The notes under the pieces are model-generated. The model was not told where the DNA came from. It did not search any database and was given only the letters and a program-made list of their open reading frames with translations. From Azolla caroliniana (Eukaryota; Plantae; Polypodiophyta), in assembly GCA_043228905.1 (NCBI GenBank), contig JBHGNT010000005.1, forward strand, positions 18,600,001 to 18,664,000: a stretch of 64,000 nucleotides of DNA, written 5' to 3'. The translations under genes and the position numbers were made by a program. Positions within the stretch are counted from its first letter, which is position 1. The number at the start of each line of letters is the position of its first letter. Below are positions 17,810 to 57,865 of this stretch, piece by piece.

Positions 17810-19359
17810 GAAACCTGACCGATTGGGACATAAAGCTACACATCACATTATGGGCGTATTAGATGACATACAAAACAAACATCCAAGCAACACCTTTCCA
17901 ACTGGCATTCCAACTGTCATGCTAATAGAAATACAGGTTCCAAGCTTGCGAGTGCAAGTACGTGAACGATTAAGCGAGCATGAGTCAGAATGTGTTCGGT
18001 TGGAGAAGCTGTGTGAGCTCGAGGAACACCGAATACTAAGTTTAATGCAGATGGAATTAGAACAACGTTAGAGGAAGGCATTCCTCGACCGACACGGGAA
18101 AGGTAACGAGAAGGAGTTCGGGATCGGAAAACCGGTTTTAGTATTCTAAACACGGATGGGGAGATGCTAGGAAAGCTCTGATTTTGATGGACAAGACCCT
18201 ATTGGAATTTAAGGGGTCATATCAGTTGGGCAATTTAGCAAGAGAGATCATGGAGAAGTGGGTGAACGGATTCTGGCTCAAACCATACAAAGGTCCAGTG
18301 CCGGTGAATCCATTCAAGATTCCGAAGCAACACGAAGAAAACCAAGTTACCAGGGACGCAAGCACCGGAGGCCAACCAGATGCTCTGACCGTCCAAAGAG
18401 ACGAGGCTACTAGACAAGAATCTGACAACACCGGAATCAGAGGCCCAACAAAACCGTTCGAGGTCAGAGAAATCAATGACACATGGAGACAAAAGGTAGA
18501 TTATGTCGTATTTCAGAAGTACGAGAGAGAGAGAGAGAGATGAAAAAAGAGAGATTTTAAATGGCAATGATGGAAAAGAGAGTGGAAAGACGTGATGTAA
18601 GAAAAATACTTAATGAACATCATGCGTTGTAATCATACCTTAATTATCCACAACGTGTGGACATGCTACCCAAGAATAGGCGGCGATGCGTTGACAGAGG
18701 ACTTGGAGAGAGATGGGCACATACAAGGTTACCGAAGCAAGAAGTAATCTCATTTAAAGAAAGAAAACTTCAGAAGTACGAGAGAGAGAGAGACTTAGAG
18801 TACCAGCAAAGCACAGAACCCATGGCACTCACATTAGAGTCAAAGGACTGGCTCCAGAAGAACGACGTTGAAGGATTTATCTGGGTAGCCGAAGCGCTAC
18901 CACTAAAGAACTGGAGAAGGTTGCTAAGACGATCGATGTGGAAGGTATCTCTGACATGACAGTGCAGGCGGCAATCGAGCTTCCATATGGGGGGACTTTA
19001 GTTGATTGAGAACCCATCCATAGAGATCCTGGATGATTATTTTGGAGAGTTCTCAATAGCAAGCAAAGCTTACCGGACATAGGAAGGAGAGAACGTCTTG
19101 TTCCGGGAGATAGCCAGAGTCCTGCTCAAGTATGGGTTTTGTGCATCCCCGACCACTGGCCATGCCGAAGAACAGAGCGGGCTTCATCATAGCATTTTTC
19201 GAAGGCTTGCGGGTGGACTGGCCGTTAGTCATAGTAGTTTCCCTCCAAACAACCATAGTGGCAATGAAAGATGGGAAGAAAGCATGGACCGGAGTTGCAT
19301 AGTGTCTAACAATCCTCGTGCCGCCACAACTCACCATCAAACCAAAGATGCGGGCACGG
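17810..19359 (+). mobile_element. Decayed Gypsy integrase C-terminus and downstream region with extra ORF remnants
   Basis: MLIEIQVPSLRV..., GSYQLGNL...WVNGFWLKPY resemble the integrase 3' (GPY/F) region. A reading frame continues across the solo LTR to 20392+ (AGT|GADDATT). Confidence 0.55.
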
Positions 19360-20391
19360 TGTCGTGAAGATTTTCGACAATGATGAGAAAATTGCATGGA
19401 ATGTACAAAATCGAGTGTGGTTCTTCACACACAACATAAAATAATAATAGTGAAGATACTATTTTATACTAGTTTAATATCTTGGTACAAAAAGATGGAG
19501 GTCTTCAAGAGCTTTCTAATACACTTTACCACATAAGAAACAGACAACTAAGTGGCAAGTTATGTGGGTATGAAGTTTGCGAAGAAGAAGAGAAAAAACA
19601 AAACTACGAGATATACCACATAGACAGGACAAATAAGGATCCTAGAGTATATAAGCAGGGCCAAAATCTATTACTTTATATCTATGAGTGGATCATAGAA
19701 TGTTCAAGGTGACTTGAGCTAAACTAACCGGATGAATGGGTGTGGCCTAACTACTTGTAAAGGTTATGGTTGATCGAGACCGAGATAGGATCAGATCGAA
19801 CCAGTCAGGACAGACGGATTGGTCGGTTGATCGTAGTGCATGGTGTTTTGAAGATTTTCAGTGTAAATACAAGACCAAAAGCCAAGTAGTATTTTGTGTT
19901 TCAAAAGGGATGTGAGCAAGCCTTGAACCTTGCACCTCCAAGTTGAAAGTCAATAGGCTTACCACTAAGCCAAGTCATATCTTCAAAAGTGTTACTTTGA
20001 TAATTTTACATGTAAATTCTCATACATGAGAGCTTAGATGATGACATGGCAAACATGCATTGCATGCATTACGTGCATATCTTGCACCCTCACATGCACC
20101 ATATGCATGGGGGCATCTATAAAAGAGTGGAGGAATCAAGCAAGAAGAAACTAATGAAAAATTTGGGAAAAATAAGAAACTTGTAATCTGATTGTTGATG
20201 TATCTTCTCTCTTAAATCTAAAAGTTAAAAGTTCAATCTTTATCTCAATATCTCTCTTTTGTCATATCAATCTCTCTGAATCTATCTTAAATACTTTCTC
20301 GCTAAAGTTAGTGCAAACTTCGAATCCTTCCGGTCCAGGACCCCGGTGGTTCCGCCTCACGATTCACACGTAGTGAAGGATCTTCACGACA
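19360..20391 (+). mobile_element. Solo LTR H1 (~1030 bp), same lineage as B/C/E/F
   Basis: Perfect 11-bp terminal inverted repeat TGTCGTGAAGA...TCTTCACGACA; flanks ACGG / ATGG (4-bp TSD with one CpG>TpG change); TATAAAA at ~20118; U5 motif shared with B, C, E and F. Confidence 0.8.
19903..19978 (-). ncRNA. tRNA-like Pol III module antisense within LTR H1
   Basis: Minus strand reads TGGCTTAGTGGTAAGCC (A box, D-arm stem GGCTT/AAGCC) ... TGGAGGTGCAAGGTTCAAGGCTTGC (B-box-like, stem GCAAG/CTTGC) ... TTTT. No proper acceptor or anticodon stem. Confidence 0.6.
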
Positions 20392-20898
20392 ATGGGTGCA
20401 GACGATGCCACAACCATCATCAAAATGACAAAAATTACTTGCAAAACACAACATCTGCCTCAACATACTACATTGGATTAGACAACAATCAAATAGGTAA
20501 CCTAACGCTAGTCACTCGCTTGTCGTAATAACTCGTAGTTGTCTGGCCTCCATGAACAACCCCCTTCTGTGCTTCATTTGGCTAGATGACATTTGGAAAG
20601 ATTAGCAGAATCTGTTCCTCTCATTGTCATAGTCACCTAAAGTAGGATCAGCCTAGATAATCGGCACATACTCTCTGTCGGAAATCTCAAAAATCGTCAT
20701 TCGAAATTGAATCGACATACTCGGGTCCAACTCACTGAAGCTAGTCAGCCATAGTCACTTCGGATCGAGACTCCCGAATTTCAAATTAGATTTAGCTTGT
20801 GTTCAAAATCGACTAGAACGAATTTGGGTGAGCCAGTCTACTGCACCCAACCATTGTTCGTAGCCAACCCCGAACAAAGCCTCCCAAATTTGACATAG

Positions 20899-24279: not shown

Positions 24280-24299
24280 ATACATTGTTCGTTGAACCC

Positions 24300-26190
24300 A
24301 CGGGTTAGCTCCACTACTCTTCATCCAATATGTCCAAAAAACTTTGGTCCAAGGGTTCGAGGGGTTCCTCGCTTTGGTGCTCCTGCTCCGGCTGTTGGTG
24401 CTGTGGTTGCTCATTCTCGGTTCAGGTGTTCTCGTCTCCCCCGGCTACATCCGTTCTCAACTCCTCTCTAGCTCCTTTTGGCTACTCCCGTCCGGCTCCT
24501 GTTGGTTGCTCCGATCCGGCTTCGGTTTTATTCGGAGGCTGATCCGCAGATTGTTCTTCATCACTGATGTTAATCGCCGCCTTCATTCGTGCCACCTTCT
24601 TTCGTCGATGCTCCCGTTCGAATCGCTCAAACTGGAGTTGGGTGCTGATCTGGTCATCGTCTAATCATTCCAACAGCCTTCAGACAACAACCAATTGCTC
24701 TCCAGCCAAGGACAGAAAGTCATCTGACAACTCTTCCCGAATGGTGACAATGCTTTCTGCATCCATCTTATAGAAGAGGTCGTCATCTTTTCTCCAGTTC
24801 TCGACGTCCGCTCGTAGGGTCCACTTTGTCCACCATTGCACAGAGCTTTCGTCAATCATCCTCTTCGTCCGTTCTTTCCATGCCAACAAAATGTCCCGGA
24901 TCTGGTTTAGCCCTAACTTGGACTTGTCCTCTGCGGCCTGCTTTTCCTCCTTCAATTTCCTTATCAGAGCCACGGTTGCCTAGGCCTGCACCCCATATTC
25001 CAGCAATTGGGTCTGATAGGTTGTTTGAACCCTATCTAGAGCCATTTTTGCTCGTTCAAACTCCTCGTAATGCTACAGGGTGAGCACCGTCCTTTCTCTT
25101 GCCGCCTACTCTAGTAGCTTCACCGACTCGACCGCCTTTGTCCGTTCCTCTGTCAGCGCATCCACTTTCTTTGCTACATCAGCCCAGAGTTCTTTGATCT
25201 TCTCTTGCTGCCGGTCACACGCTGTGATTAACTTCTTATGCTCTACATCAAGTTGTTTGTGATCTCGGTGCAGCTTCTCAAAATCATCTATTTTTTGTTT
25301 TAACTTCCGGTGTATTTGCCCTCGTGCGCGGTCCTCCCTGTTCTTTTGTTGCCGAGCTCCTCCTTGAGTCTTTCCATTTCCGTTTCAGCACTATGCCAGA
25401 GTTTCTCCTTTTCCTGAAGCAGTTTTTCTCTTTCTTCTTTGAGCCGGTCGTTGTTAGCTTGACTTTTTCGAAGGGTCTCGTCAATCCTCTGCTTCTCCTC
25501 CTCGGTTGTCTTCTTTTGCTCCCTTTCTCTGCCTTGTAGGGCCTCTTGAGCCGACAATTCCTCTTTCACGGTGGCTATTTCTTGTTCAAGCTCGTAATTA
25601 TTTATCGGTGCTGTGCTAGCCCCTGGTTCTTTGCTTGTTTGTGTATTACTCGGTGCCACCGACTCTGTGGTTGTATTTGGCCCTGTCTGGGTCGTATCAG
25701 CCGCTTGTTTCTTGGCCTTCTCCAACTCTTCTTCTAAGCTCTGGATCCGTGTCCGGGCCTTTTCTAATTCTTCGGTCGTGGCTAGCAACCGATCCATTTG
25801 CATCCTTTCTTCTTGCTCCATCCGGTTCACAAATCCCGACACCTGCTCCCCCAACCATCTCAACCATTGCCTGCAGGTTCCGTGTTGTATTGGGAGAACG
25901 AATGGCTGTTCGTGCTCTAGTCTTGGTTCAGGCTCTGTTCTAAACCATTGGGTCAGTGGCACCAATGTCTGCTTTGGACGATGTCCCTCATGCTGTTGTT
26001 CTTGAAGGCCCAGTGAGGTCCGATTCTCTGTACCCGGTTCCTACTGATCCGTGGTCACCGCTTTTGGCCTTATTTTCGATTTTGCCTCCGTCCGGGTTCT
26101 ACCACCACTGAGCAGGTCGTTGGGGCGTTGTCCAACATTGGACCTGATCCTTCCCCTTGTTGATATGTATCGCGCTTGCCTGGTCGACAT
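24300..26190 (-). pseudogene. Decayed coiled-coil-rich ORF of element G; continues at 56876-57225
   Basis: E/K/Q-rich ORF pieces at 25300-25965 and 24680-24973. The frame is open across the 26190/56876 junction (...EEDPTETLQR|RPGKRDTYQQGEGSG). Confidence 0.55.
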
Positions 26191-26663
26191 TGTCGTGAAG
26201 ATCCATCACTATGTGCGGATCGTGAGGCAGAACCGCCGGGGTTCGGGACCGGAAGAACTCGAAGTACGCACAAGCTTTAGCAAGAAAGTATTTAAGATAG
26301 ATTGAGAGAGAGAAATTGAGATTAAATGCTTGACTTTAGATTGAGAGAGATTGAAATGGAGAGAGAGATTAAGATTGAACTTTTAACTTTTAGATTTAAG
26401 AAACAAGATATATCATCAATTGGATGACGAATTTTCTTCTTATTAAATTCTTTAATAGTACATCAATACCCTTTTGATCTTTTTCATCCACCCTTTTATA
26501 GATGCTCCCATTCATATGATGCACGTGAGGGTACAAGACATGCATACAATGCATGGAATGCATGTGAGCCATTTGGCGCTCATGCATCACATGTCACTCA
26601 ATCAAGCTCTAATATGAGAATTTACATGTAAAAGTATAATGATAGGAAATATAATTTCTAAAG

Positions 26664-26740
26664 AAATGATTTGGCTTAATGGTAAGCCTATTGTTTCCTA
26701 TCTTGGAGGTGCAAAGTTCGAGTCTTGCTTACATCTTTTT
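26664..26740 (+). ncRNA. tRNA-like Pol III module antisense within LTR H2
   Basis: TGGCTTAATGGTAAGCC ... TGGAGGTGCAAAGTTCGAGTCTTGC ... TTTTT. Confidence 0.62.
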
Positions 26741-29700
26741 CGTTTATGCACAAAAACTATTAGGCTTTTGGACCAAATATCTTTAAGACATCATGCACGG
26801 CAATCAACCGACCCGACCAATCCGTCCGATTTGCATCCGTTGTCGTGGAGAAAACCGTCCCTAGGCGGAAACCGGGTATAACGTGTGTAAACCGTCCCTT
26901 ACACATGGGCATGATTTTTGTTGTACAGTACATAGATAGGTACAGCTAAGGTGAAATACTAGGTAGCACGCATTCCTTAGGGAGAAAATCGAGGCATATC
27001 CTTGTCCGAAAGGACAGGGAATAAACATGATGTAATGGATGGTAACGGCCTCCCTCCTTGGGCTATAAAAGAGAGGGAGAGGTATTGTGAAAGGGGATCA
27101 CGTTTTTGTGAAGGACGAAGTGCTGCCGGACTGGAATCGAGCTCTTCTCCTCTGTCTTCTCCATAGTCGTTCTGTGCAGGTTTTCGGGAGGTTGACTCTG
27201 CTCCGTGGAATGCCCGAGTGCTTCCAGTAGAGTCTCCATCTCGCGTTCTGTGCGTGTGCGTGTGTGTGTGCAGGCGTCGGAGCCTATCACTCGCCGGCTT
27301 GCCGGTTGTAACTCCTTGATATATATATATACATATACATTCGTTCTGTCTCCATTGTTCAGAGTCAGTTGCAACTCCTGCGAATTTGTGTGTCTATGCG
27401 CGTGTGAAGTACATCGGTAGTTTCTGTAAAAAGTAACGTGCAGAAGCAAGTATGAAAACCGAATAGAAGGAAGAAAACTCAGGTTTAATGGAGAGCTTGA
27501 GCTTACACAGTATATACAGGAGAGAGAAAACACAAGAACTATCTTTTTTTAAAAGATCTCGATTCACTACCATATACATATGTGTGTTCCATGAACACTT
27601 TTATACAAGTCTTCGAAGGACTGAGCGAAGTACTGACCGTACTTCAATGCTCTTTAAGAGCTCCTACGCTAACTCCCAAATATATTCCTCACGTAATATC
27701 TTTCCTAACGGCCTCCCGGTTTACGCACTCGGCCTAACCGATCGGTCCCAACCGATCCGGTCCTCGGCTTCTTCAGCCGATTCGGTCAATGTTGAGCTTG
27801 TCTCTCAACACTCCCCCTCAAGCTCAACTCGAGGCTCTTCGGGATCCTTGGGCTCACAGCTCCGGTTCCTCCTGGCTTCACGCCTCGCTCGCGCTCCTCG
27901 ACCTGTTCGACTCCACGCGCTTCGACCCTTCCGGTCGGCTTGTCTGCTCATGCGGCCCTTATTAGCTCTTCTGCTGTTGTGGTGTTGACGCTTCTCTTGC
28001 TGCCTTTTCTTCCGCTTGGGCCTCGATTGATTCAGCGTATCTGAATCAAACATCCGAACCGACTCGGCTACCTCCGATCGGTTTTCGCTCCCGTCCGAGT
28101 TGGCTGTCTCCAGCTCGTCTTCGGTCTTCTCGCCCTTGGTGGCGTCATCTTCACCATGCGTGGTTGGCTTCGGCTCTCTCCTTCGGCTGCTCCCCTTCTG
28201 TCCGCTTTCGGATTTTTCCGCGGGTCCGCCCTTGGCTTCTTCAGCCGATCCGAAGTCGAACTCGACAACTGAGTCAACAACCGAGTCAACCGACTTGGTG
28301 TCGCAGCCTCCGCTCCTTTCCTGCTGCTTTGCTTGGTCGTTCGGGACTGTTCTCCCCCTCAAGTTTGGCATGTCGAGGTGACGCAATCCGAGCGCACCGA
28401 AGAATTGCCGCAACTTGTCCAGACCAAGGGGCTTAGTGAAGATGTCGGCAGTCTGCCGATCCGTCAGAACGCACTGAAGTTCGACTTCACCGGAAAGGGC
28501 ATGCTCACAGACGAAATGGTAGTGCACCTCAATGTGCTTGGTCCGTGCGTGGAAAATGGGATTTTTCGCGAGCTGGATGCTGCTGAGGTTGTCGCAGTAG
28601 ATCGTCGTCGGATCTGACACCTCCTCTTGCAGGTCCTTAAGTAGCCGCTTCAACCATATGGCTTCGCATGTCGCGACAGCCGCTCCTCGGTACTCAGCTT
28701 CGGTGCTTGATAGTGCAACCGTCGGCTGCTTCTTACTGCTCCACGCGATCACGGCACTCCCGAGGGAGAACGCGTATCCGGACGTGGATCGGCGATCGGT
28801 GGCGTTGCCAGCCCAATTAGCATCAGTGTAGCCGACTAACTGCGCGGCTGCACCGGTCCGATATAGCAGTCCCCGGTCCTTAGTGCCGTTGACATACCGA
28901 AGTATGCGTTGCGCACACTGAAGGTGCTCCTCGGTAGGTCGCGCCATGAACTGACTAATCACTCCGACCGGATAACTGAGGTTGGGTCGGGTGATGGTCA
29001 AGTATATGAGGCTTCCGACAATTTGTCGGAACCTCGTCGGGTCGCATACCGTTCCCGTATCGGGACGAAGCTTGACGGTTCTGTCCAGAGGAGTCGAGAC
29101 TGACTTATAGTCGGCCATCCCGAATTTGAAGAGCATACTTAGCACGTAGTGACGTTGGCTGATCAATATGCCTTCGGGGGTACGGATCACTTCGATCCCA
29201 AGGAAGTAATGAAGGTCCCCCAGATCCTTCATGTCAAACGATGCCGCAAGTTGGAGCTTCACGCGGTCGATTTCACGTAGGTCGGCGCCGGTGATGACCA
29301 AGTCATCAACATATAGTAAAATACTAACCGGTCTGAGTCGACCTTTCCGGATGAACAGGGAAGAGTCCGATTTTGACGTGACGAAGCCCATCCAATGCAG
29401 TTGTTGCGTGATCTTCGCGTTCCAGACACGCGGGGCTTGCTTTAGTCCGTAAAGGGACTTCTTCAGTCGGCATACTGCCGAGGAGTTCGTTCCAGAATGA
29501 AATCCAGGGGGCTGTACCATGTACACCTGTTCCTCAAGGTCACCTTGAAGGAATGCATTCTTTACATCCATCTGATGTAAGTGCCACCCCTTCACCGCAG
29601 CTATTGCGAGCAAAACACGGACGATCGTCATTTTCACGACTGGCGCAAACGTCTCATCGTAGTCGATGCCGTGTTTTTGCGCGTAGCCCTTTGCCATTAG

Positions 29701-31504
29701 CCGAGCCTTGTACCGGTTGACCGAGCCATCGGTGTTGTACTTGACCTTGTACACCCACCTACACCCGATCGGTTTTACCCCTCTTGGTGCGTCAACCACC
29801 TAGGTCTCGTTCTCCGCCAATGCGTGCATCTCTTCCTCCATCGCGGCACGCCAATTCGCATCTTTAGCCGCTTTTGCGTAGCTCTCCGGCTCACGCACTT
29901 CCGCTACACGAGTCATGTACGCATAATGATGCGCCATGTACTCGTTGTATCCGAACCGCAAGACAGGATTCTTCTGGCGGGTAGATCGGCGTAATCTCAC
30001 ATTAGCCGATGTCGAGGCCTTCTTGGTCGACGCGGTCTTCACCTTTAAAGACCCGTCACCGGTTCCCTCGGAGTCGGACTCGCGTTGGTCTGACTCGTTC
30101 CTATCTGTGCCGGAATCCGACACCTTCTTCTTCCCTTTCTCTTTGCGTGTAAGCCGTCTCCTCGGCTTCCTGCGCGGGGAATGCACGATCGAGTCTCCAC
30201 TACTCGCCAGCTCTTCATCGGACTGGTCGTACCGACTCAATCGTCCAATCGGTCCACTTAAACGGAGTGAAATCGGACTCTCTTCGCGGGCCTCGATTTC
30301 GGGCTCATCTGGAGGCATCTCGGCCTTGCTGACCTCATCGTCAGAGCTCGGATTGGAGTCGGGGTTCGGAGTCGGGGGCTGGTACCAGGACGCGGACTCG
30401 TCAAACACAACGTCACGGCTAACACGCGCTTGTTTGGTGCGAGGGTTATAACACTTATAACCCTTCTGCTCGTCCGAGTAACCGACCAAGATGCATTTCT
30501 CGGCCTTTGCGTCCAACTTCCTCATTTTCTCCTTCGATACATGCACATACGCAATGCTACTGAACACCCTCAAGTGTCGCAAGTTCGGCTTCGTTCCGAA
30601 ATACAGCTCGTGCGCCGACACTTTGTCTCCGATCCGGTTCTGGATGTATACCGCAGTCCTTACTGCCTCGGCCCAGTAGAACTTGGGCAAGCTCTTCTCC
30701 TCCAACATTGCCCGTGCCGCTTCCACAACTGACCAATTCTTCCTCTCGGCCATGCCGTTCTGCTCTGGCGTGTATCTACAACTGAATTCGCACCGAATTC
30801 CCATTTGTTGTAGATAACCGTTGAATTGACCAGAAAAGTACTCTTTCCCGCGATCCGACCGCAGGCACTTGATCTTTCGTCCCGTTTCCGTTTCCACGAA
30901 CCCTTTGAGGTCCCGGAAACAGTCGAAGACTTCGGTCTTCCTCTCAATGAGGTAGATCCACGTGTGCCGCTGTCGTGCCTTTCGGCTCCGGATCGTTGCG
31001 TGAGTCGGGTGGGAACCGCCGAGGTTTTGGACTAGGAGGAAGAGGAATACAACTTAAGGCTAGCTATGAATAGTAGAAAGAGAAGTAAGATAGCAATCTC
31101 GTGAATCCCACGAGTTTAGTGTATTTAAAACAATATTTAGATTATAAGAGTAATTTAGATGGCAAAATTCGTGAATCCCATGAATATATTAGATTGATCA
31201 ATCCTTGTATATTAATCAACAACCTTATACATATTTCTCTCCTCCTTATATAAAGATGGAAGAGGCTAAGCATGGCTTCATGCCTTTTTCACCAAAAGTG
31301 TCCATGCACACTAAATGTGCATGTGATGCTTTGTCATTTCCTAAATATAGGGCTCATGCATGCTAGATGTGCATGAGTCACTTTTAATGTCACGTGTAAA
31401 TAAAATATTCACACCTTAAAGAATACATGATTTTTACCTTTTAATAAAGGTATGTGTAAATAAAGGTCTTATACGTATTAAATCTATATGTATAACACTA
31501 AAGA

Positions 31505-31585
31505 TACGTTATTACAATGGTAAAGTTGAGGTTTATCTATGTGGAGGTGCAAGGTTCGAATCCTACTCTATGCACATGATAAATA
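31505..31585 (+). ncRNA. tRNA-like/B-box module antisense in the 3' LTR of E (second copy at ~44988-45068)
   Basis: ...CAATGGTAAAG...TGGAGGTGCAAGGTTCGAATCCT. Perfect B box GGTTCGAATCC at 31553-31563 and 45036-45046; A box degenerate. Confidence 0.55.
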
Positions 31586-33534: not shown

Positions 33535-33552
33535 TGGTGAACCCGACGTGAA
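33535..33552 (+). promoter_or_regulatory. Primer binding site complementary to the 3' end of tRNA-Trp
   Basis: TGGTGAACCCGACGTGAA is the reverse complement of ...TTCACGTCGGGTTCACCA, the plant cytosolic tRNA-Trp(CCA) 3' end (recalled, not searched). Confidence 0.8.
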
Positions 33553-33574
33553 AGAGGCGGCAGAAGAGCAGGAA

Positions 33575-45100: not shown

Positions 45101-48100
45101 CTAAAATCGGATATATTATTCTATGGTTTTCACGTAGTGTGTGGAATACACTACGACACCGCGTGTGGTCGTCGATGAAGGAGACGAAATATCGGCTCCC
45201 GCCAAGACTAACGTTTTGTGCCGGCCCCCATACATCGGAGTGTATAAGGTCGAGCTTATTCCGGCTTTGGTTTTTCTCGTTGGGGAAAGGAAGTCGGTGT
45301 TGCTTCCCGAGCTGGCAGGCTTCACAAATTTGTGCCTTTCGGCCGCTAAATTTGGGCAATCCGAACACTACCTGTTTTGAATGCAGATCTTGAAGCCGTT
45401 GGTAGTTGACGTGGCCTATCCGCTTATGCCACAAGTCGATGTTCGACTCGGTTTTTCTTCCCTTCGCGAACATTGCGGTGCCGCCGTCAGTGGAGTCGAG
45501 GATGAACATCCTCCCGTCTCTGCGCCCTTGCACAATCACACGACCTTCTTCCTCAATGAAGCACCCGAGGTGTGTAAACCGAACCTCCATCCCTTGGTCG
45601 ACGATCTGTCCGACTGAGACCAAGTTCTTCGCGATTGTCGGAACGTGCAACACGTTCATGAGTTTCCCTTTCTGCCCGACATGGCTAAGGGGAACTTCTC
45701 CGACATTCGCGATCGGATGTGGAGTGTCGTCTCCAGTTGTGACTACTCCAGGTTGTATCGGTTTTTCAAGGTACGAGAACCACTCCTTATGGCTCGTCAT
45801 GTGGTTTGACGCGCCGGAGTCTACGTACCACACCTCGTTCGATCTCGGGGTGATCCGTTTCATTGACTTTGCTTCGTGTCTCGTCAGGAAGGCAGACCCT
45901 TCTCTGGTTCTCCCGGAGTCTTCGGCGTAGTGTGATCGCTGCCGATTTCCCTTGTAGGTATGTCCGGAGCCGTTTCTGGAACCGGTTCTCTCCGAATCGG
46001 CGCGCTTCTTCCAACACTCACTTTCCCTGTGGCCTTTCTTGCCACAGTACTAGCACTCCGCGATGGCCTTCCCTTGCCGGTTCTCATCGCTTCGACTCCC
46101 CCAGTTTCCGGAGTGTCCGAAGTTGCTGTCGTCATCACTTCGGTGCCTTCTTCCTAGATCTCGTCGGCCGCCTCCATTGCGCGCCGGCTCGCCTCGTTCT
46201 CCACGTCCACGGGGCCTATCTCCCTCAGTGTACAACATTTTGCTGTCGGTGTGCGTGCTTGTAGACGCACCCGCGTGGTTCTCCTCTACCAGGAGCATTG
46301 ACTGTAAGTCGAAAAAGGACGGCGTATTCTCCCGGGTACACACAACCGTCCGGAACGCTTCGAACTTCGACGCCAAACCTCCGAGACAGATCTGGACCAT
46401 CTCGCTCTCCTCGATGTTCACCTCTATGGAGGCGAGGGAGTCGCAGATATCCTTGATCTTCGAGGTATAGTCCGCCATCGACAAGTCGCGTTGTCGTAGG
46501 TTGCTCAACTCCTGTCGGAGCTGAAGCTTCCTGGCTGTGGTGCTCGCGGCGAAGATCTTCTTCAGATTTTCCCACGCACCCTTCGGCGTCTTTGCATCCC
46601 GAACATAGCTCAATAGCTGTTCGCCCACACACGACGCGAAGCAGTATAATACCCTACTCGCCGATTGCTCCCACGACGGGAAGTCTCTGTGTGTCGATTC
46701 GGGTGCTGCGTCATTAGCTCCTTCGACATAACTCCAGTAGCCGTGCCCGAGCAGGTACTGGTGCATCTTGTAAGACCAAGACGCGTAGTTGGTTCTGTCG
46801 AGCTTCTCTGCTGGAAGCGAGCTCGCCATGCCTCTATCCATCGTTCTTCTTGTTCTTCTTCGTCAAGCTGTGTTGGCTGCAGAGAGGTTCTCAACCCTCG
46901 CGCTCTAATACCATGTAAAAAGTAACGTGCGGAAGCAAATATGAAGACCGAACAGAAGGAAGAAAACTCAGGTTTAATGGAGAGCTTGAGCTTACGCAGT
47001 ATACACAGGAGAGAGAAAACACAAGAACTATCTTTTTTGAAAAGATCTCGATTCACTACCATATACATATGTGTGTTCCATGAACACTTTTATACAAGTC
47101 TTCGAAGGACTGACCGAAGTACTGACCGTACTTCAATGCTCTTTAAGAGCTCCTACACTAACTCCCAAATATATTCCTCACGTAATATCTTTCCTAACGG
47201 CCTCCCGGTTTACGCACTCGGCCTAACCGATCGGTCCCAACCGATCCGGTCCTCGGCTTCTTCAGCCGATCCATCCGATGTTGAGCTTGTCTCTCAACAG
47301 TTTCCTTCCCCTGTTCTCATTCGGTTATTTCTCGGTCCAAGGCCCCCGTGGTCCCGCCTCGTTCTCCACGCACGTGCGTAACAACGCGACATATTTGGTG
47401 AACCTGACGTGAACAGGCAGCAGAGGAATAGAAAGATGAGAGGGTTGGATCTTGCATAAGCCATGGCTTCGGTTGTGGATCGGATAGTGAGTGTGCGCGA
47501 AGGCACAGGCACCCTCGATAGGGCTATTGAAGCAGTCGTCGGCACGATAGGCCGGTTCGGTGGGAAGGACGCCACGAGCTATTTGGAGGCTTACTGAGCC
47601 GAAATGGTGATGAGGGACATCCCGGAGGACAGGTGACTGGCAGGATTCCCTTGGGTGGCGATGCCGGGCATGCACGCGGAGGTGCTTGAGGTACGGGCTG
47701 AGAGTCAGACCTGGGAAGAGTTTGAAGGTCGGCTCCTTGAAAAATACGGGCTTGATAACGCGCTTCGGCTCTCAAAGCGGGACTTCATGGAATCGGTGGA
47801 GACCCCCGAAAAGGGGAGAAACGCGTCGGTGCTCCTTCGGGAGTTTGAAGAACACTTCGCACGTCTTTCGGCACTGGACCGGACCGTACTGGACACAAGT
47901 CGTGTCCTATTGTTCGTTAAATTGGTGGACGTAAGGGACCTGGAGCAAGTGGGCTTCCTGTTAGAGACTGATGACGGCCTAACAACCGACTGGGCCATGG
48001 TAAAGAGGGTCTGCGGCCGTTTTGACAAATGGCGTGAATGGGTTGATAAAGGCTTGACGGGGGCAGGTTCTATTGTGACAAGGAAGGTTGAGGTACCCCC

Positions 48101-51100
48101 ACCGGCGCGAAGGGAAGAGAACCGAGACTGGCTCGAGACCAGCTCGACCTCGATCAACATGGTCAAGGGCTCGTCCGGAGGAGCGGCTCTAGAGGAGCTG
48201 ACTCAGATGGTGAGGGACCTCCAGATTGCACAAGCACGGAGGGACGACGGCAAATAAGTCTGTGACCGAAGGCCTCCGACTGGGAACCAGTGCTTGTGGT
48301 GCGACGCGGTCGGCCATGCTCGAAAGGACTGCGGGGACTTCGCCGAAGCGATAAGAGCTAACGTGGTGTACCTATGGAACGGTCAGGTGCACGCTAGCGA
48401 GACTCGAAGGGCCCTGAATCTGAATGTCGGAGAGCGGGTATGAAACGGCTGATGGAAGAAGCGGCAACTTGCCACGCGGAGACCGTCCACTACTCGGCGT
48501 CAGCTGGAATTTGGGTCAGAAGTGATGAAGTCTGGAAGACGAAGGAAGCCAGATTCTATCCGTTGATGTTGGAAGGCCTTGTCGGCGTACGACTGAAGAA
48601 AGAGGAAGCGGACCACGCGGAAAGACGGGTCCGGGAGGCAATTGGGTGGAGTGACCCGGTCGAAGAGAAGATGGGCTTCGTTGAAGCCGCTTGCCAAAGC
48701 TACGAGGTTCTGGTGGAGGACAAGCGTGCGGGTAAGACCGGAGGGGTCGGACCCTCACAATGGTATGAGACCCGGGTTGGGCAAAGGCAGAATGATGCCG
48801 GTGCGACCGACGCACTGGATAAAGCCAAGAGGGCCGCGTACCGATTGAGCACGGAGATCGAGAGGACCACGAACGTATCCTCGATAGCAAAGTGGAGCTG
48901 TCACTAAGGGAAGTGCTCGGAATCGCCATTGTGAACTTGGTGAAGCGGAAAAGGCTTTCGATAGAGCCAGAGCTGGAGAAGCTGGTGGAGGTGCGAACGC
49001 CGCACCTAGAAGACATGGCTCTAGAAGACGAGTTGGCGGAGAGCCACTATTCAAGGCCACATTGGGCCAGAGCAACCACGGAGACCCCCATTAAGATCGT
49101 AGATGTTCAGGAGCCGGTGGTGGCGTTGGTGGACCACGGCTTAGAAATCAAATTGATGTCCATGGACTTCTAGAAGAAGGGGAAGTGGCCAATCAACACC
49201 AAGCACGGGTGGAAAATATGCGTCACGGAAGAGCTGCATGGAGCCTGCCCGAATGTACAAGTGAAAATCGGTGATGTTGAGATCGATCAACACTTCTTCG
49301 TGCAGGAGATGTCCTCGCTCACAGCTGGTTATACTCGGGGAACCGTAAATCACACAGCACGGATGGAGACAAAGGTGCTAGACAACGGTTCGGCATATGC
49401 ACGAGTCAAGAGCCAGGATGGGCGTCACTCGGTCCAGTTCCTGACAGTGCGACTGAACCATGAGCGTAACCACGAGACCCTCAGTGGCGAAAACCGAGGG
49501 GATTTTTAGAGAGGGCTACGATAGTCCAAACACCTTGGAAAAACCCTATAGATGTACTATAGGCAAAAAGACCTGCACCATAGGTAGGAAATTTTGGTTC
49601 TCCGATAGTGGAGGTTGTACGATAGCCGGCGTAGTTGGCCAGGAAAAGAAGCGGGTGGAGGAGTGACTTCGGGCATGCGGAGTCCTCGGCCCTGAAGAGG
49701 ATATCAATAGAGCCGTGGGGGCGGTCTCTTTCAATGACACCTTAGGGAAGTTATGGGAGGTGTTCGGAGAAGGCCTTAATGAGGACCGGACGATTCCGGT
49801 ATGTTCGGAAAGGATGTACGAAGTCATCGCCTACTTCGGTAATGGACTCGAGTCGGATCGGACAGCCCAAGTGGATACAAAGTACAAGACTGTGGACTGG
49901 AAGGTGAGGCCAGTTGCGACACCCTTGCCGGAGGGTAGCGAGTTACGGATAAAGGGGGTCGCGTCGGACCCAAGTTTATGAGATCTGGCCAGCATAGGAC
50001 ACACGTTCACTGACATAACGCTACAGGAGCTCAAGATTGGTGGGGGTGGCTTTCTACAACCGGAGGAAGAGGACTGGTTTCGGAGAATGCTCAGGAGGCA
50101 CGGGAAGGCGTTCGCATTCTCACCGGACGAGATCGGGTGCGTAGACCTGACGGTTGTGGAACCAATGGTGATCTTCACGGTACCACATGTGCCGTAGAAT
50201 CTCAAACCGATTTCGGTACCCAGAGCTCATATCCCAAAGCTGATGGAGCTGCTGAAATAGAAGGTGCAGATGGGCATCCTCGAACCATCAAGTGCCCCAT
50301 ACTCGAATCGGTGGTTTACCATGCCAAAGAAGAACGGCACGTTGCGCTTTATTCAAGACCTGCAACCGGTCAAGTGACCATTCGGAACGCAGGAATCAGA
50401 CCGACCATAGACGAATTCACGGAGGCCTTCGCCGGAAGGTCGATTTACTCAATCAGTGATTTGTACTCGGGGTACGATCAGTTCCAACTAGCCGTGGAGA
50501 GCAGGGACATTACGACGATGCAGACTCCTCTCAGCCTAGTGCGGATGTGTACCCTCCTGCAAGGAGGGATGAACTCGGTAGCCCACATGGTGAACGCAAT
50601 GAACAAAGTGCTGAGGGATCGTATCCCTGGCATCACCATGCCGTTCTTAGACGACATCCCAATCAAAGGATGCCTGGTGGAGGAAAAGGACGAGACAATC
50701 AGACCAGACGGATGTCGGAAATTCGTGGCGGCTCACGTCAATGACTGCGAGAAGGTATTGCAAAGACTAGAAGGTGCGAGGCTCACCTTCTCCGGGGAAA
50801 AATCGGCCTTCGGGCAGTCGGAGATCATGGTTGTCTGACACCTATGCGGGCCATACGGTCGGAAACCGTCTCCGGCCAAGGTGGAGGCCATCTCCGCGAT
50901 GAAGCAAGACTGCAATTCGGTTATGGAGGTTCGGAGATTCCAGGGAGCATGTGCGTTCTACCATATCTGGATCCCGCATTACGGCCACGTCGCGGAGCCG
51001 TTCTATGGGTTGTTGAAGAAAGGGCGAAAATTTGAGTGGAGAGATGAGCATACAAAGTCGGTCCGGAAGATGAAAGAAGCACTTGCCGCGGCACCGACGC

Positions 51101-53599
51101 TTCGAAAGGCTATCTACGGCAAAGACACTCTGATTTACGTGACTGTAGACACGAGTCTGACCAGGATTGGATGGGTGATCAACCAAGAGGATGACGATGG
51201 TGCGAGGTTCCCCATCCGGTTCGGCGCGAAAGTCCTCAGTGAGTGACAACGAGGATACGCCCAGGTTAAACGTTAACTCTAGGGTATTGTTTCGGCGGTC
51301 AAGGCCGATAAAGACTACCTGATCGGGACAAAGGTGATAATCGAGACGGACTGCTTGCCGATTCTCAGCATGGTTTCCGGATGCGCGATGCCGGACCTGG
51401 TAATGCTCAGGTGGATAGCGTACATCAAGTCCCTGAATCTGGAAATACGACACATTTCCGAAAAAGACAGTGCCATGGTTGACATGCTTTCGAGAGCGAG
51501 GTTCGATGACGAGGACGGCATGGTTTCGGAGGACGAGGAAGTCGGCATGGACTTCTTCGAGGCGGCTTACGTAACAACAAGAAAGGGGAGCACTCCGGCG
51601 CTTAACGAATTCGACGAGAGCAAGTACGACGGGGAGTGGCTCCAGATCGGCGGGTTCCTAAGGACAATGACACCGGATGCGGCGTGGACGAAGGATGAGA
51701 CCAACTGGATTTGGAAGAAAGCATACCGATTCTTCCTACGGGACGGGAGCATATGGAAGCACCCAAAGAAGAGAAATGACATCCGGCTCCGAGTGGTGGC
51801 GAAGAAAGAGGAACAGGGAGAATTGTTGACGGCATACCACGAGAGTCCCTGGGCCGGACATCGCGGGACGTGGGCCACATTCGAGAAGCTAAAGGGGAAG
51901 TACTGGTGGCCGGTACTATACTGGGACGTGCATCGGTTCGTGACGACTTGTGAAAGCTATCAGGTGCACTCCATAGTCCGACATCGGGATGAGCTTCACC
52001 CGACCTACTCTCCGACCGTCCACTTCAAGTGGATGGTGGATCTGGTAACGATGCCAATGGGGATAGGGCAGATGTGGTATCTGGTGCTGGCTCGGGAGGA
52101 CTTGACGAACCAGGTGGAAGGCCGAGCGTTGCAGAACAAAACGACTGCGGCCGTGTGCCAATTTCTGATCGAAGAAGTGGTATGCCGATACGGGTGCGTA
52201 GGTAAGATCTTGGTCGACCGTGGAGAATTGGACGCGCAAGAGGCGGAAGAGCTGTTTGACCGGCTAGGGATTAAACTCTCGCTCACCACAACGTACAATC
52301 CGGAGGCTAACGGGAAGGTGGAACACAAACACGGGCCGATCGTCAAAGCGTTAGTATGGGCGTGTGGGGGCCAAGTCGGGAACTGGCCGTGGCTCTTACC
52401 CTATGCGTTGTGGGTGGACCGAACTACGCATAGTTCGGTAACCGGGTTCATGCCGACAGAGCTAATGTATGGGCAGAAGCCGAAGATGCCAACGGAGCAG
52501 ACAATCTCCTCATGGGCCACGGTGGACTGGAAAGACGAGATGAGCCGGGAGGAGCTGTTAGCGGCATGGATTCGGCAGATGGAGTGAAGACCGGAGGACG
52601 TGGACCAAGCCGCGGAGAAGCTACGGGTGGCGAGGGTAAAGAAGAAAGGACGGTTCGACCGGACTCACCGACTGAGAACGAAGAAGATCGAGGAAGGCAA
52701 CTGGGTTCTAGTGTATGACAGCAACCTCGACAACCAACATAGGGCAACGCGGAAGTTTGCAAGAAGGTGGTTTGGGCCTTATGTGGTGACAAGTGCCAAC
52801 GACAATGGGACCTACCATCTTGCGGAGCTCAACGGGACAAGGATGGCGGTACCGGTGGCGGGAAAAAGGATAAAAGCATTCAAAAAGCGGCACGAGGCTG
52901 GATCGGACCTGCACGACCTGGATAGCGACAATGACCGGCTCGGAACGGATGTCGATCCGGAAGACGAAGGATAAGCGTGGGCCGGTCTTCTCCGGCAAGA
53001 GTCTAATATTGGCGCATACCGGTAGATGCACGGTTAGGTGGGGGCGGATGTCGTGGAGAAAATCATCCCTATGCAGAAACCGGGTATAACGTGCGTAAAC
53101 CGGCCCTTACACGTGGGCACAAGTTTTGTTGTACAGTACGTAGATAGGTACAAGTCGGTTGAGGTGAAATCCTAGGTAGCACGCATTACTTAGGGAGAAA
53201 ATCGAGGCGTTTCAGATAGGGAATAAACAAGATGTAACGGGTGGTAACAGCCTCCCTCCTTGGGCTATAAAAGAGAAGGAGAGGTATTGTAAAAGGGGAT
53301 CGCGTTTTTGTGAAGGACGAAGTGCTGCCGGATTGGAACCAAGCTCTTCTCCTCTGTCTTCTCCATAGTCGTTCTGTGCAGGTATTCGGGAGGCTGACTC
53401 TGCTCCGTGGAACGCCCGAGTGCTTCCAATAGAGTCTCCATCTCGCGTTCTGTGCGTGTGCGTGTGTGTGTGCAGGCGTCAGAGCCTATCACTCGCCGGC
53501 TTGCCGGTTGTAACTCCTTGATATATATATACATATACATTCGTTCTGTCTCCATTGTTCAGAGTCAGTTGCAACTCCTGCGAATTTGTGTGTCTATGC

Positions 53600-55962
53600 G
53601 CGCGTCTTCCATTCATTTCCCGGTCGGATCCACACGAGGTTATACGCTCCTCGTAGATCGATTTTGGTAAAAAACTTGGCACCATTAACTCGCTCCAAAA
53701 GACTTGATATAAGAGGAAGTGCATACCTATTCCGGATGGTGACCTTATTCAATCCGTGGTAATCAACGACGAGACGAAGTGAGCCATCTTTCTTCTTGAC
53801 AAAGAAGATGGGTGCACCGGCCGGAGATTTCGTATGACGGATGAACCCGCTTGCCAAGTTCTCCTCTATGTAGGCTCGAAGGACTTCTAACTCGGTGGGT
53901 GACAAGTTGTAAATTGGTCCCCATGGTGGCTCGGTTCCTGGTTGTAAATCGATGGGACAGTCATAGGGACGGTGATGAGGAAGGGTACCGGCTTTTACCT
54001 TGTCAAATACATCGGCATAAGGATGATATTTTGCCGGAAGTTTGTATTGAGGAGTCCTTCTTAATAGTGCTGGAAGGATGTACTGATATTGCAAATAGGA
54101 ACATTGCCTCCTTGTGTCCTTCTTCGCGTAATTGATGGAGTGAAATGGTCGAAACTTGGTGAGTAGATTCTTGGGGTGGTCGATAGCGGACTTCTCTTGT
54201 TCTCCAATCTATGGCTGGATTATGTAATTCAAACCAAGGTAATCCTAGGACAATGGGATGCTATGGACTACTAATTATATTAAATGATATTACACACACA
54301 AAACTACCTAGGACAAGTTGAATGGGTTCTGATTCTTCTACAATATTCCCGGAAGCAATGGGACGACCATCAATGACTACTACAGATGCGGGACAAGGAA
54401 GTTTTCTTAGGGATATCTGAGAAGCTTGGGCAAAATTTCGATCCATGAAACGGGAATTAGCTCCAGAATCTAAGAGTGCTAGGACGGGTACTGGGGGAGT
54501 ACTTTTAGTACTAACAATGACTTGGGCTAGGAACACATTGCTACCTTTCTTGGAAGGAATGGAACCACTAAGCTGTACAGATCTAGGGCTGCTGTCCAAC
54601 CAAACGGCTCCTACTTTGGCTGGACTCAATCGTTTAACTCTTCATCTAATTGACTAAGGATTTCAAATTTGTTTGAGATACTTGGGCTATTAGTAGTATG
54701 AATACTATCTGACACTCTATTAGTTTTATTAATACTATCAGACACTCTGAAGGGAAGAATTGACTCAGGTTTAATATAGGCGACGATTTGATTTACCTGT
54801 CTTCTTGGCCTATGGGGACAATTGATGGCGATATGCCCTGGTCCACCGCAATAAAGGCATAATCGATTGGCACGTCCTCGTTGCTTTTCTTCTTCCGATA
54901 ACGGGCCGTGTCGACGCATGGTGTCGATCTCCATCGGTGTCGGAATATTGGCTTGAGGTACATCGCGTGCAAACGGTTTAGCCGTGACTGAGGCGTATGT
55001 GCGTTCCGGCCGAGAGCGTGGTATTTGTAACTGACGCTCCGAACGTCGTTCGAAAAGGCGGTTGTCGCATCGGACCGCTCGACTGATTGCCTCCCTAAGA
55101 GACTTTGGTTCTTCGGGGAAGGTTAAAAAGCAGATCTTTGACATCATTGCGCAAGCCGTAGCGAAACTGCTCCATGATGGCCTGATCATCCCAGGGAATA
55201 TCTGAGGCGAGTAGACAGAAATCCGCCACGTAGGCAGAGGCTGGATGATCGCCTTGACGCAATCTTCGGATCTTGTTGATCGCCGTCCTGATGCTGTCGG
55301 TATCTCCAAAGCAGGCTTTAAACTCACCAATAAAATCTTCAAAGTTATTAAGCAAGGGGGATTGTTTTTCTAGAAGCGGAGCGAACCATGCCAAGGCTGA
55401 GCCGCTAAGTAACGTGCCTATTAGGCCGACTCGAGATGCATCAGTGGGATATCGGGAAGGATGCATCTGGATGACTAAGCGTACCTGATTAAGGAATCCC
55501 CGGAATTGCGATCGCGTTCCATCAAATTTCACAGGAAGTCCAATCTTGGGCTCTTTTTGAAATCCTTGGGGACTTGATCCTTGTTGTTGCGACGCTGCTT
55601 CGAGTTGTTGTACCCGTAATGCTAACTCCCCATGTTGTTGTTGCGTTTGTTATTTTTCGAGAGAGATTTGTTGCAGATCCCCTATCAACCGTTGGTTTTC
55701 TTGTTCCAGGGCAACAAACTTTTCTTTTAGGCACTGTAACTCGGAGAAAACGGATTGATATTCTTGGGCGCTAACAGTAGCCATAGTATAAGGAAAAGGG
55801 TAGGAGGATGAGGGAGAACGACAAGTAGGCTGGAGGAAAGGAAAAATTGGTTCAAACTGTCAGGAATAGTACTAAAGCAGAGATGGAATTAATACACAGA
55901 AGAGCAGTACTATTAGTACTAAGAGAACGGGACTGCGTAAAATTCCCGAGAGAGGAAGTCAG

Positions 55963-56007
<45 letters not shown>

Positions 56008-56326
56008 GAGGATGAGAGAGAGAGAAAGAGGATGTCAGCAGCTAATATATTATGTGAAAAGATAAGTACAAAGCGGCTGAGAGGCTTAAGACTGGTGTTG
56101 AACCAATTTGGTTCAACATAATGCCTAGTGCCTTCTTTTATAGTGTTGTCAGGAGTAATCCTGAAACTTCTAGAATGTTCCAGAGAAATCTGGAATATAC
56201 ATTACTTTCTTATAATAAAACATAAATGAAAATAATATCTTATGAATTACAATAGATGGTGTGATGGTTAAGAGCTCGACCCATATACCATAAGGTCATG
56301 GGTTCGAGTCTTGCCATCTCATGACA
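53600..56326 (-). mobile_element. 5' half of Tf1/sushi/Tcn1-like Gypsy element D (LTR 55858-56326, gag, PR, start of RT)
   Basis: LTR termini TGTCATGA...TCCTGACA; gag KFDGTRSQFRGF..LSGSALAW, CLYCGGPGHIAINC; PR LLDSGA; RT SPAGAPIFFVKKKDGSLRLVVDY..KIDLRGAY; truncated at EWKT. Confidence 0.88.
56254..56320 (+). ncRNA. tRNA-like module antisense at the outer end of the D LTR
   Basis: AGATGGTGTGATGGTTAAG...GGTCATGGGTTCGAGTCTTGCCATCT: A box TGGTGTGATGG, B box GGTTCGAGTC, closing stem AGATGG/CCATCT. Confidence 0.55.
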
Positions 56327-57225
56327 GTCACCGGTTCCGTCGTCGGATGCCGTCACTAGTTCCATCGCTAGATGCCATTCGCCGGTCGCCGGTTCCGTCA
56401 CCGTCGCCGTCCAGTCACCGATTGTTGGCTCCATCCAGTTGCCGATTATGTCATCGACTGGTTTGAGTTTTTTCACCGGCCGCTTCGAGCACTTAGCCAC
56501 ATATGTCCATCTAGAAAAAAGTGACTTAAGTCCAACTATTTTTTATGTGCTCTTAACACATAGATGAAATATGATGGATCTCAATCTAGTTATATAGTTG
56601 GAGCCTAAACTTTTCCTATCTATGTGGGATATTTCACAATTTTATTTTTCTCTTTTTCTTTTGCAAAACTTTATATCCACATAACTTGATACTTAGATGT
56701 CTATTTCTTATGTAGTAAAGTGCATTCGAAAGCTCTTCATGACCTCCATCTTTTTGTACCAAGACATTTAAACTTTTTCAAATCAGTATCTTTACTATTA
56801 TTGTTTTATGCGATTCATACTCGATTTCGTATGTTTTATGCAATTTTCACACCATTGCCGAAAATGTTCGCGACAACGTTGGAGGGTTTCGGTTGGGTCT
56901 TCTTCTACCTGTTCCTCCGTGGTTTCATGGTGCACCCTCTGGACCAGATTGTCCGTTTCCTTGTCCTATCGACACAACTTGATTTTGAACGCCTTGGTTG
57001 ACTTTTCCACCAGCATCACTGTCTCCGTTTGTTGCTCCAGCCTCGGCTACTCCTTTTTTATCTTCGTTGAACCCCTTGTCTGTTTTGTTTCCTTCTGCGT
57101 CGAACCTCCCTTTGTCCATCAGGGGCTATGCTTGGCCAAGATTTGTTGCCGTTTGGGTGGCTTGTTCGACGTTGTTTTTGCCTGTTGAGCATGCTTCTTT
57201 GCCTTAATGGTCAGCACTGGGGGTA

Positions 57226-57865
57226 TGTGAAGAGAAAAGCGCGGAATATAGCACGACCACAACTGAGGAATGAATCACTTCAATTAGAATCAAGCGCAAA
57301 AATTGGAAATGGGGAGAGAACGAACGTACACACACAAATAATAGAGAGTACACAGGATGTTTATGTGGAAAACCCTAATCGGGAAAAATGATGGGAGCCC
57401 ACGGGCTCTGAACTATCACTATATGAGAGGGCATACAAAGTGGAAACAGAGAGGCAACGACCTTGTGCTCACGATCTTTGCTAGACGGCGGTTACAACAG
57501 AGAGTGCTCGTAGCTACTCTCTCACTCTCTCGCTCTCTCTATCACTATATAACAGTTATACACATACAACGATATGACAACAACCATTTTAAAGTGATTG
57601 CCCTAAGTCATATTTATACTTATATGAACTTAGGGCTATTTACAAATATAGCCTCAATAGGCCTATTCAAAACATATTTACAAATATGTCTTCTCTTCCA
57701 GTTCTCACCAGGTCCATCTGATCCGGTTTCCGGATCTCTTCCGGTTCTCAACGGGTTCTCTTCATCCATAACCGGATCCCATCCGGAGGAACCGATTTCC
57801 CAACAATCTCCCCCTTCACTCTGGCATGGGATGTCTCGCAAGCCTGATCCGCTTTCAGCACGCGT
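57226..57865 (-). mobile_element. 3' LTR (57226-57805), PPT and pol tail of another Copia element, interrupted by F
   Basis: TGT...AACA termini; PPT TGAAGGGGGAGAT at 57806-57818; Copia-LTR-like GTGGAAAACCC...GGGAAAAA. Confidence 0.65.

What the first reader, a model, noticed from the sequence alone, without database searches (positions are those of the whole stretch)
19356..57865. Gypsy lineage making 4-bp TSDs centred on CpG
Seen: TSD CCGC for C (32841/39949) and for E (30967/45159), both confirmed because the host reading frame is restored with one copy; ACGG/ATGG for H1; ACAT/ACGT for H2; single flanks CCGT (B) and GCGT (F). All six fit N-CG-N once CpG decay is allowed. Copia M has an ordinary 5-bp TSD (GTTTC). 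Established: most plant LTR elements make 5-bp TSDs with weak sequence preference. Inference: this integrase targets CpG, possibly depending on methylation, which steers insertions into CpG-rich young retroelements and away from CpG-poor genic DNA, explaining the deep nesting.
Basis: partly seen in the sequence, partly recalled or inferred. Interest (0 to 1): 0.75.

Follow-up and report, generated by a model that had tools for sequence, protein, structure and literature searches.

The report
Fern retrotransposons that insert at CpG
Jumping genes in what is likely a fern genome land almost only on a CG pair and duplicate four bases there, a habit already published for their likely moss relatives (the Phygy group); their integrase likely reads the CG directly, and whether methylation matters is untested.

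Summary
All six window TSDs or flanks and copia M's 5-bp TSD check out. Genome-wide, 99 of 109 independent sites from five LTR families have a central CG and the other 10 have TG or CA, as expected from decay. CG is 4% of background dinucleotides. All 18 of 18 youngest LTR pairs carry CG in both copies. Neumann et al. 2019 already list a 4-bp NCGN TSD and a tRNA-Trp primer for the moss Phygy clade. These elements match on TSD, primer and lack of extra domains; placement against Phygy reference sequences could not be tested. Added here: a likely fern host and a tighter motif, V-CG-B, a strict case of the foamy-virus VYRB consensus. Flanks are no CpG-richer than those of random CpGs, so CpG availability explains most of the nesting. 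Methylation dependence is neither shown nor excluded.

The parts
19356..19359 (+). H1 left TSD copy ACGG
19360..20391 (+). H1 solo LTR (TGTCG...CGACA), family H
20392..20395 (+). H1 right TSD copy ATGG (C>T at the CG)
26187..26190 (+). H2 TSD copy ACAT
26191..26826 (-). H2 LTR, 3' part (matches H1 19813-20394); B is inserted next to it
26837..26840 (+). B single flank CCGT
26841..53605 (+). Gypsy element B; 5' LTR split by copia M (26841-27424 and 47305-47391), Trp-type PBS at 47396, 3' LTR 53049-53605 cut short
27420..27424 (+). Copia M 5-bp TSD copy GTTTC (other copy 47300-47304)
27425..47299 (-). Copia element M (control lineage); LTRs 27425-27810 and 46914-47299
30967..30970 (+). E TSD copy CCGC
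30971..45158 (-). Gypsy element E; LTRs 30971-31675 and 44454-45158; Trp-type PBS near 44441
32841..32844 (+). C TSD copy CCGC
32845..39948 (+). Gypsy element C, 7104 bp; LTRs 32845-33531 and 39262-39948
33535..33550 (+). PBS of C, complementary to the 3' end of host tRNA-Trp(CCA), 3 nt after the LTR
33521..35701 (+). C gag-protease frame (DUF4100 hit)
35662..39189 (+). C pol frame, RT-RNase H-integrase, overlapping gag in the -1 frame; integrase from about 37972; no chromodomain hit
39250..39261 (+). Polypurine tract of C
39949..39952 (+). C TSD copy CCGC
45159..45162 (+). E TSD copy CCGC
56611..56875 (-). H2 LTR, 5' part
56876..56879 (+). H2 TSD copy ACGT
57862..57865 (+). F TSD copy GCGT (other copy ACGT just beyond the window, locus L062)
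57866..64000 (-). Gypsy element F; 3' LTR 57866-58500; runs past the window end

Best explanation
These are short Ty3/gypsy retrotransposons, likely of the Phygy clade and likely in a fern, that insert with a 4-bp duplication at V-CG-B sites, and their integrase likely selects the central CG itself by direct base reading. Shown: 4-bp TSD, central CG, T avoided at position 1 and A at position 4, tRNA-Trp PBS, no chromodomain or methyl-reader hit in Pfam. From published foamy-virus structures: a 4-bp stagger bends the target sharply and unstacks a central pyrimidine-purine step, and T is avoided at the joining base. Inferred: this lineage narrowed that loose VYRB preference to CG through base contacts, most likely from the conserved C-terminal loop (Q1097, H1098, K1103, R1107, W1108 of Pol) and Glu927 at the Ala188 position. 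Inferred: methylated CG is tolerated but not needed; later C-to-T decay gives the TG/CA copies; and nesting follows because about 78% of the genome's CpGs lie in repeats.
For: Target: 99 of 109 sites have CG, 10 have TG/CA only, none anything else; all 165 TSD copies have CG (139), TG (14) or CA (12). 18 of 18 LTR pairs under 1% divergence have CG in both copies, although TA and TG+CA are 6.2% and 13.6% of background dinucleotides, so flexibility alone does not explain it. T1 or A4 occurs in 4 of 99 sites against 54% expected; ACGT is 5.4-fold enriched. Control: copia M has exact 5-bp TSDs in 8 of 8 two-flank sites and a CG in 1 of 21. Literature: Phygy row with 4 bp, NCGN and Trp PBS; PFV consensus VYRB, unstacked central YR, Ala188/Arg329 contacts and T avoidance (passages); ZAM integrase binds CGCGCg in vitro. 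Protein: best PDB matches by sequence and fold are PFV and Ty3 integrases; E927 is Glu in 69 of 74 rows, Q1097 in 66, H1098 in 63, K1103 in 73. Flank CpG density is not above the random-CpG null.
Against: No biochemistry or complex structure. The loop's match to PFV Arg329 rests on predicted secondary structure and my recall of the PFV C-terminal domain, not on a printed alignment (one search covers only residues 14-246 of the query). Repeat-like flanks are somewhat above the CpG null (87% vs 78%, P 0.034), and none of the 13 no-hit sites showed a host-gene domain in Pfam; a methylation or chromatin bias would also give this. No P. patens Phygy sequence was available, and C (7104 bp) is below the moss size range of 7656-9968 bp. 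One solo LTR (L046) has GTGT on both sides, which could be a true TG target. One dropped row (L107) would read CCTA if only its last LTR base had mutated. Sites are the top-scoring 30 LTR matches per family, not a random draw.
Confidence: 0.75

Rival explanations
1. The integrase requires or strongly prefers 5-methyl-CpG, so it reads a silencing mark and homes into methylated repeats.
For: 87% of flanks are repeat-like against 78% for random CpGs (P 0.034). No host-gene domain was found near the 13 no-hit sites, and 4 of them had TE domains. Repeats here are likely methylated: LTR pairs show transitions at CG (0.0195 per site) and CHG (0.0247) four to five times the CHH rate (0.005). A retrotransposon with a captured MBD exists in arthropods (PMC6673714, search listing only).
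Against: No MBD, SRA or chromodomain hit in gag or pol. Selection against insertions in genes predicts the same small excess, and copia M shows 16 of 21 against a 60% positional null (P 0.11). ZAM integrase binds CGCGCg on synthetic oligonucleotides and PCR products. Methyl-reading proteins often also accept TpG (recalled), yet 0 of 18 young pairs have TG or CA.
Confidence: 0.12
2. CG is chosen by shape rather than base contacts: the CG step, methylated or not, is the one that best takes the sharp central bend in this intasome.
For: 4-bp-stagger integrases favour flexible central YR steps (PMC4422553 abstract and passages). The outer-base rule (no T at position 1) matches the general retroviral rule.
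Against: TA and CA/TG are also YR steps and together are five times commoner than CG, yet they are absent from the 18 youngest pairs. The PFV YR bias is described as weak.
Confidence: 0.1
3. A host CpG-binding protein tethers the integration complex to CG sites.
For: Tethering explains region choice in other elements, such as Ty3 at TFIIIB-bound tRNA genes (PDB title).
Against: Tethering gives a window of sites, not exact centring of CG within a 4-bp TSD. There is no motif beyond positions -1/+1 and no CpG-density excess over the null.
Confidence: 0.03

Closest known systems
Phygy clade, non-chromovirus Ty3/gypsy of Physcomitrium patens (Neumann et al. 2019, PMC6317226; passages, section 9 and supplement 5 read)
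   Same: 4-bp TSD with NCGN preference (100% of 186 elements), tRNA-Trp PBS (81%), short element with coding sequence filling the interior, no chromodomain, aRH or extra ORF.
   Different: Host is likely a fern, not a moss. C is 7104 bp (moss range 7656-9968). The motif resolves here to V-CG-B with a mild C at -1 / G at +1. Coding layout here is gag-protease with an overlapping -1 pol (listed as ND for Phygy). Phylogenetic identity was not testable.
Prototype foamy virus integrase (consensus KWK-VYRB-MWM, 4-bp TSD; PMC4422553 abstract and passages; PMC4005685 abstract)
   Same: 4-bp stagger, V..B outer bases, T avoided at the joining base, central YR step; best sequence and fold match in the PDB.
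   Different: PFV's preference is weak and accepts any YR; here CG is near-absolute. Glu stands at the Ala188 position.
ZAM of Drosophila (PMC2527525 abstract and passages; 4-bp TSD in PMC3276498 passages)
   Same: Gypsy element with a 4-bp TSD and an integrase that binds a CG-containing target (CGCGCg) directly in vitro.
   Different: Insect lineage with a longer target and a second binding site; kinship to these elements was not tested.
Selgy and TatI clades (PMC6317226 supplement 5)
   Same: Non-seed-plant non-chromovirus gypsy with 4-bp TSDs; TatI also uses tRNA-Trp.
   Different: Selgy uses tRNA-Ala, is about 5 kb and has no listed TSD motif; TatI carries aRH, which was not seen here.

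Membership tests
Phygy | Ty3/gypsy domain order GAG-PROT-RT-RH-INT | tested here: met
   Pfam order RVT_1, RT_RNaseH, Integrase_H2C2, rve in C pol; protease motif at the end of the gag frame
Phygy | 4-bp TSD with NCGN motif | tested here: met
   99 of 109 sites CG, 10 TG/CA; 54 of 56 two-flank sites within one mismatch at 4 bp, 0 exact at 5 bp
Phygy | PBS for tRNA-Trp | tested here: met
   PBS complements the 3' end of host genes; 6 of 6 loci checked were called tRNA-Trp(CCA) by ARAGORN
Phygy | No chromodomain, aRH or extra ORF; coding region spans nearly the whole interior | tested here: met
   No such Pfam hit; gag and pol cover 33521-39189 of an interior 33532-39261; fold matches are integrases only among the rows shown
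Phygy | Element length 7656-9968 bp (described, but called insignificant for classification by the authors) | tested here: inconclusive
   C is 7104 bp, about 550 bp under the moss range
Phygy | RT, RH and INT group with P. patens Phygy reference sequences (the primary criterion) | not testable with these tools
   REXdb files (supplements 1 and 3) were too large to read; no homolog named P. patens among the 120 listed in each. RT tree: C and E sit in a 97/96 clade with Riccia and Adiantum elements
Selgy | tRNA-Ala PBS, about 5 kb | tested here: not met
   Trp PBS, 7.1 kb
TatI | Additional archaeal-type RNase H domain | tested here: not met
   Only one RNase H region, between RT and integrase, in the Pfam scan; REXdb aRH model not available
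Chromovirus (Tcn1, Galadriel and others) | Chromodomain at the end of integrase | tested here: not met
   No Chromo hit; pol ends in a short acidic tail

The most novel reading that the evidence does not exclude
The Phygy-type integrase is a methyl-CpG-reading integrase without any MBD or chromodomain: it centres its 4-bp cut on 5mCpG, so the element reads the host's silencing mark at base resolution and hides in methylated repeats across mosses, liverworts and ferns.
Probability: 0.12. Interest if true: 0.75.

Novelty: new member of a known kind. Interest (0 to 1): 0.22.

Why it matters
The trait is known. What this adds is small but usable: a large, young population of NCGN-targeting elements in a likely fern (5 of 13 family-C pairs have LTRs with 0% divergence), a sharper motif (V-CG-B), and a link to the foamy-virus VYRB rule that names candidate residues. 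Plant LTR integrases rarely read sequence, so this lineage is a tractable model of how an integrase gains a strict dinucleotide target. If it turned out to need methyl-CpG, it would be an integrase that reads an epigenetic mark directly; nothing here shows that.

Tried and rejected
(1) A 5-bp or 2-bp TSD reading: rejected; 0 of 56 exact 5-mers, and the variable outer bases match in both copies. (2) CG enrichment from CpG-rich flanks: rejected; flank CG is about 4.9%. (3) Extra targeting of CpG-rich young elements: not found. (4) A longer palindromic motif: only C at -1 / G at +1 (39% vs 21%). (5) Looking for insertions in genes as unmethylated targets: Pfam on 47 frames around the 13 no-hit sites gave TE domains at 4 sites and no host gene; uninformative. 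(6) Single-sequence fold: unusable, pLDDT 35; the alignment-based model (pLDDT 83) was used. (7) Metagenome relatives: 40 of 80 loci have the Trp-type PBS, but collapsed LTRs left only six usable host junctions, five CG (L270, L271, L273 twice, L302) and one TG (L310); the L289/L290 hit lies inside the LTR and was dropped. Weak evidence. (8) tRNA scan of 30 background stretches found none. (9) Passages of papers on M. graminicola, Yarrowia Ylt1 and P. patens RLG families gave no CG-TSD data. (10) My first guess of a bryophyte host was dropped.
Full report
1. Observation. The window holds a nest: a split LTR H2 contains gypsy B, whose 5' LTR contains copia M, which contains gypsy E, which contains gypsy C. 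Solo LTR H1 and gypsy F lie outside the nest. With one TSD copy, the host frames read through at both the C and E junctions. F's second LTR lies just past the window; the pair reads ACGT/ACGC. B's 3' end was not found in 53001-57900. H2's halves match H1, but part of the middle is missing.

2. Genome-wide test. I searched the own genome with the LTRs of C, E, F, H1, B and copia M and took the best 30 loci of the 40-51 listed per search; first-look candidates numbered 1581-4148 each. TSDs played no part in the choice. Of the 180 loci, one search dropped 11 with no clean host junction and 6 duplicates. In one search I joined L027 with L028 as one element, removed L176 (its flank looks like a decayed PBS) and restored L081 and L140 (false PBS calls). 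That left 109 gypsy sites (C 16, E 23, F 19, B 24, H 27; five are the window's own) and 21 copia sites. 99 of 109 have a central CG in at least one copy, 10 have only TG or CA, and none has anything else. Of 56 two-flank sites, 33 match exactly at 4 bp, 21 have one mismatch, and one each has two and three; none matches at 5 bp. 16 of the 26 mismatches are C/T at position 2 or A/G at position 3. Background: 80 stretches of 10 kb at round coordinates on C1-C22, GC 43.5%, CG 3.95%. All 18 pairs under 1% LTR divergence have CG in both copies. Copia M has exact 5-bp TSDs in 8 of 8 two-flank sites and a CG in 1 of 21. Against the reading: L046 has GTGT on both sides, and dropped row L107 could read CCTA.

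3. Motif. It is tighter than NCGN. T at position 1 or A at position 4 occurs in 4 of 99 sites against 54% of genomic NCGN tetramers; ACGT is 5.4-fold enriched; TCGA, CCGA and GCGA classes are absent; C at -1 / G at +1 is mildly favoured. So the motif is V-CG-B. C-to-T decay cannot create a lack of T at position 1.

4. What the elements are. C is 7104 bp with 687-bp LTRs, a gag-protease frame, and a pol frame (RT, RNase H, integrase) overlapping it in the -1 frame; Pfam finds no chromodomain. The PBS complements host tRNA-Trp(CCA). Named homologs come from Riccia liverworts and the fern Adiantum nelumboides, and an RT tree of 36 rows puts C and E in a 97/96 clade with them (P0121 left out as too short). 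A host gene, RRS1, has its best named matches in ferns (Ceratopteris and Adiantum 71%; Sphagnum 61%, Riccia 59%), so the host is likely a fern (one gene). The fern lead came from earlier scan notes.

5. What is known. Neumann et al. [quoted passage not shown] Their supplements 1 and 3, which hold the element table and sequences, were too large to read, so the phylogenetic test could not be run, and they may already show the outer-base bias. Jedlicka et al. (PMC6911290, passages) report 4-bp TSDs with GC-rich centres and Phygy nested in Tcn1. Phygy domains are reported in a liverwort (PMC12885004, passages). A search for 'NCGN' with 'retrotransposon' gave 3 papers, only Neumann relevant by title; 'fern genome' with 'LTR retrotransposon' and 'Phygy' gave 0; a search on methylated CpG and integrase target selection listed nothing on this lineage among the 20 shown of 86. 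The library lacks most subscription papers.

6. Nesting and methylation. CpG per 300 bp of flank: gypsy sites 14.7 (95% 13.6-15.8), random positions 11.8 (10.5-13.1), random CpGs 16.6 (15.4-17.6). Repeat-like flanks: 95 of 109 (87%), against 78% of 1200 random CpGs, 60% of 1200 random positions and 16 of 21 copia sites. The repeat library was only the 800-kb sample plus window elements, so all shares are undercounts. The excess over the CpG null is modest (block-bootstrap P 0.034) and lies in unclassified repeats, not in gypsy-like or copia-like DNA. So most of the shift into repeats follows from where CpGs are; the rest fits selection against genic insertions or a mild chromatin or methylation bias, which I cannot separate. 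In 26 LTR pairs, transitions at CG and CHG run four to five times the CHH rate, which indicates methylated repeats. Since most targets lie in repeats, the integrase likely tolerates methyl-CG (inference). Need for methylation is untested.

7. Mechanism. For prototype foamy virus, whose integrase is the best PDB match by sequence and fold, the consensus TSD is VYRB, the target is sharply bent with the central YR unstacked, Ala188 and Arg329 touch bases, and T is avoided at the joining base through a methyl clash (PMC4422553 passages; PMC4005685 abstract). V-CG-B is a strict case of that rule, so the TSD length and outer bases need no new mechanism. The lineage-specific step is CG over TA and CA/TG, which are five times commoner; this points to base-specific reading (inference). 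Candidates are Glu927, aligned to Ala188 and kept in 69 of 74 rows, and the conserved C-terminal loop between strands 316-320 and 338-347 of the model; its match to the Arg329 loop is recalled, not aligned here. ZAM shows that a gypsy integrase can bind a CG target directly (PMC2527525 abstract and passages; 4-bp TSD in PMC3276498 passages).

8. Verdict. Real, strong and known in kind. Most likely Phygy-type elements in a fern, with direct CG reading by the integrase (0.75). Methyl-CpG dependence is the open novel reading (0.12). Interest 0.22.

Noticed in passing
window 33532-33534, 44450-44453, 47392-47395; L099, L102, L108; L261-L340: The spacer between the LTR's CA end and the PBS is long and family-specific: 3 nt (C, F), 4 nt (E, B), 8 nt (H), and about 1-8 nt in metagenome relatives. 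Integrase would have to trim a variable overhang at the U5 end.
   Followed up: no
L051, L063, L086, L109: LTRs with a PPT on the left and a PBS on the right, i.e. tandem elements sharing one LTR, in 4 of 150 gypsy loci.
   Followed up: no
window 35690-35701: GGATTTT followed by TAG at the gag/pol overlap of C, a likely -1 frameshift site (slippery-site role recalled). Neumann lists the Phygy coding layout as ND.
   Followed up: partly
G000:C8:17796786-17823371 and G000:C16:4989495-5105657: Clusters of tRNA-Trp-like 3' ends, about 1.2 kb apart on C8 (16 matches) and 19 matches on C16; these clusters were not among the six loci checked with ARAGORN.
   Followed up: no
window 53606-56600: Sequence that cuts B's 3' LTR has RT and zinc-knuckle hits on the minus strand; possibly a LINE-like insertion with a deletion.
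   Followed up: no
window 13859-15820: A separate decayed RT-encoding element on the minus strand, left of the nest.
   Followed up: no
L172/L173 (G000:C15:4159465-4165711): Two family-B LTRs 6.2 kb apart share the same left flank, which suggests gene conversion or a local duplication.
   Followed up: no
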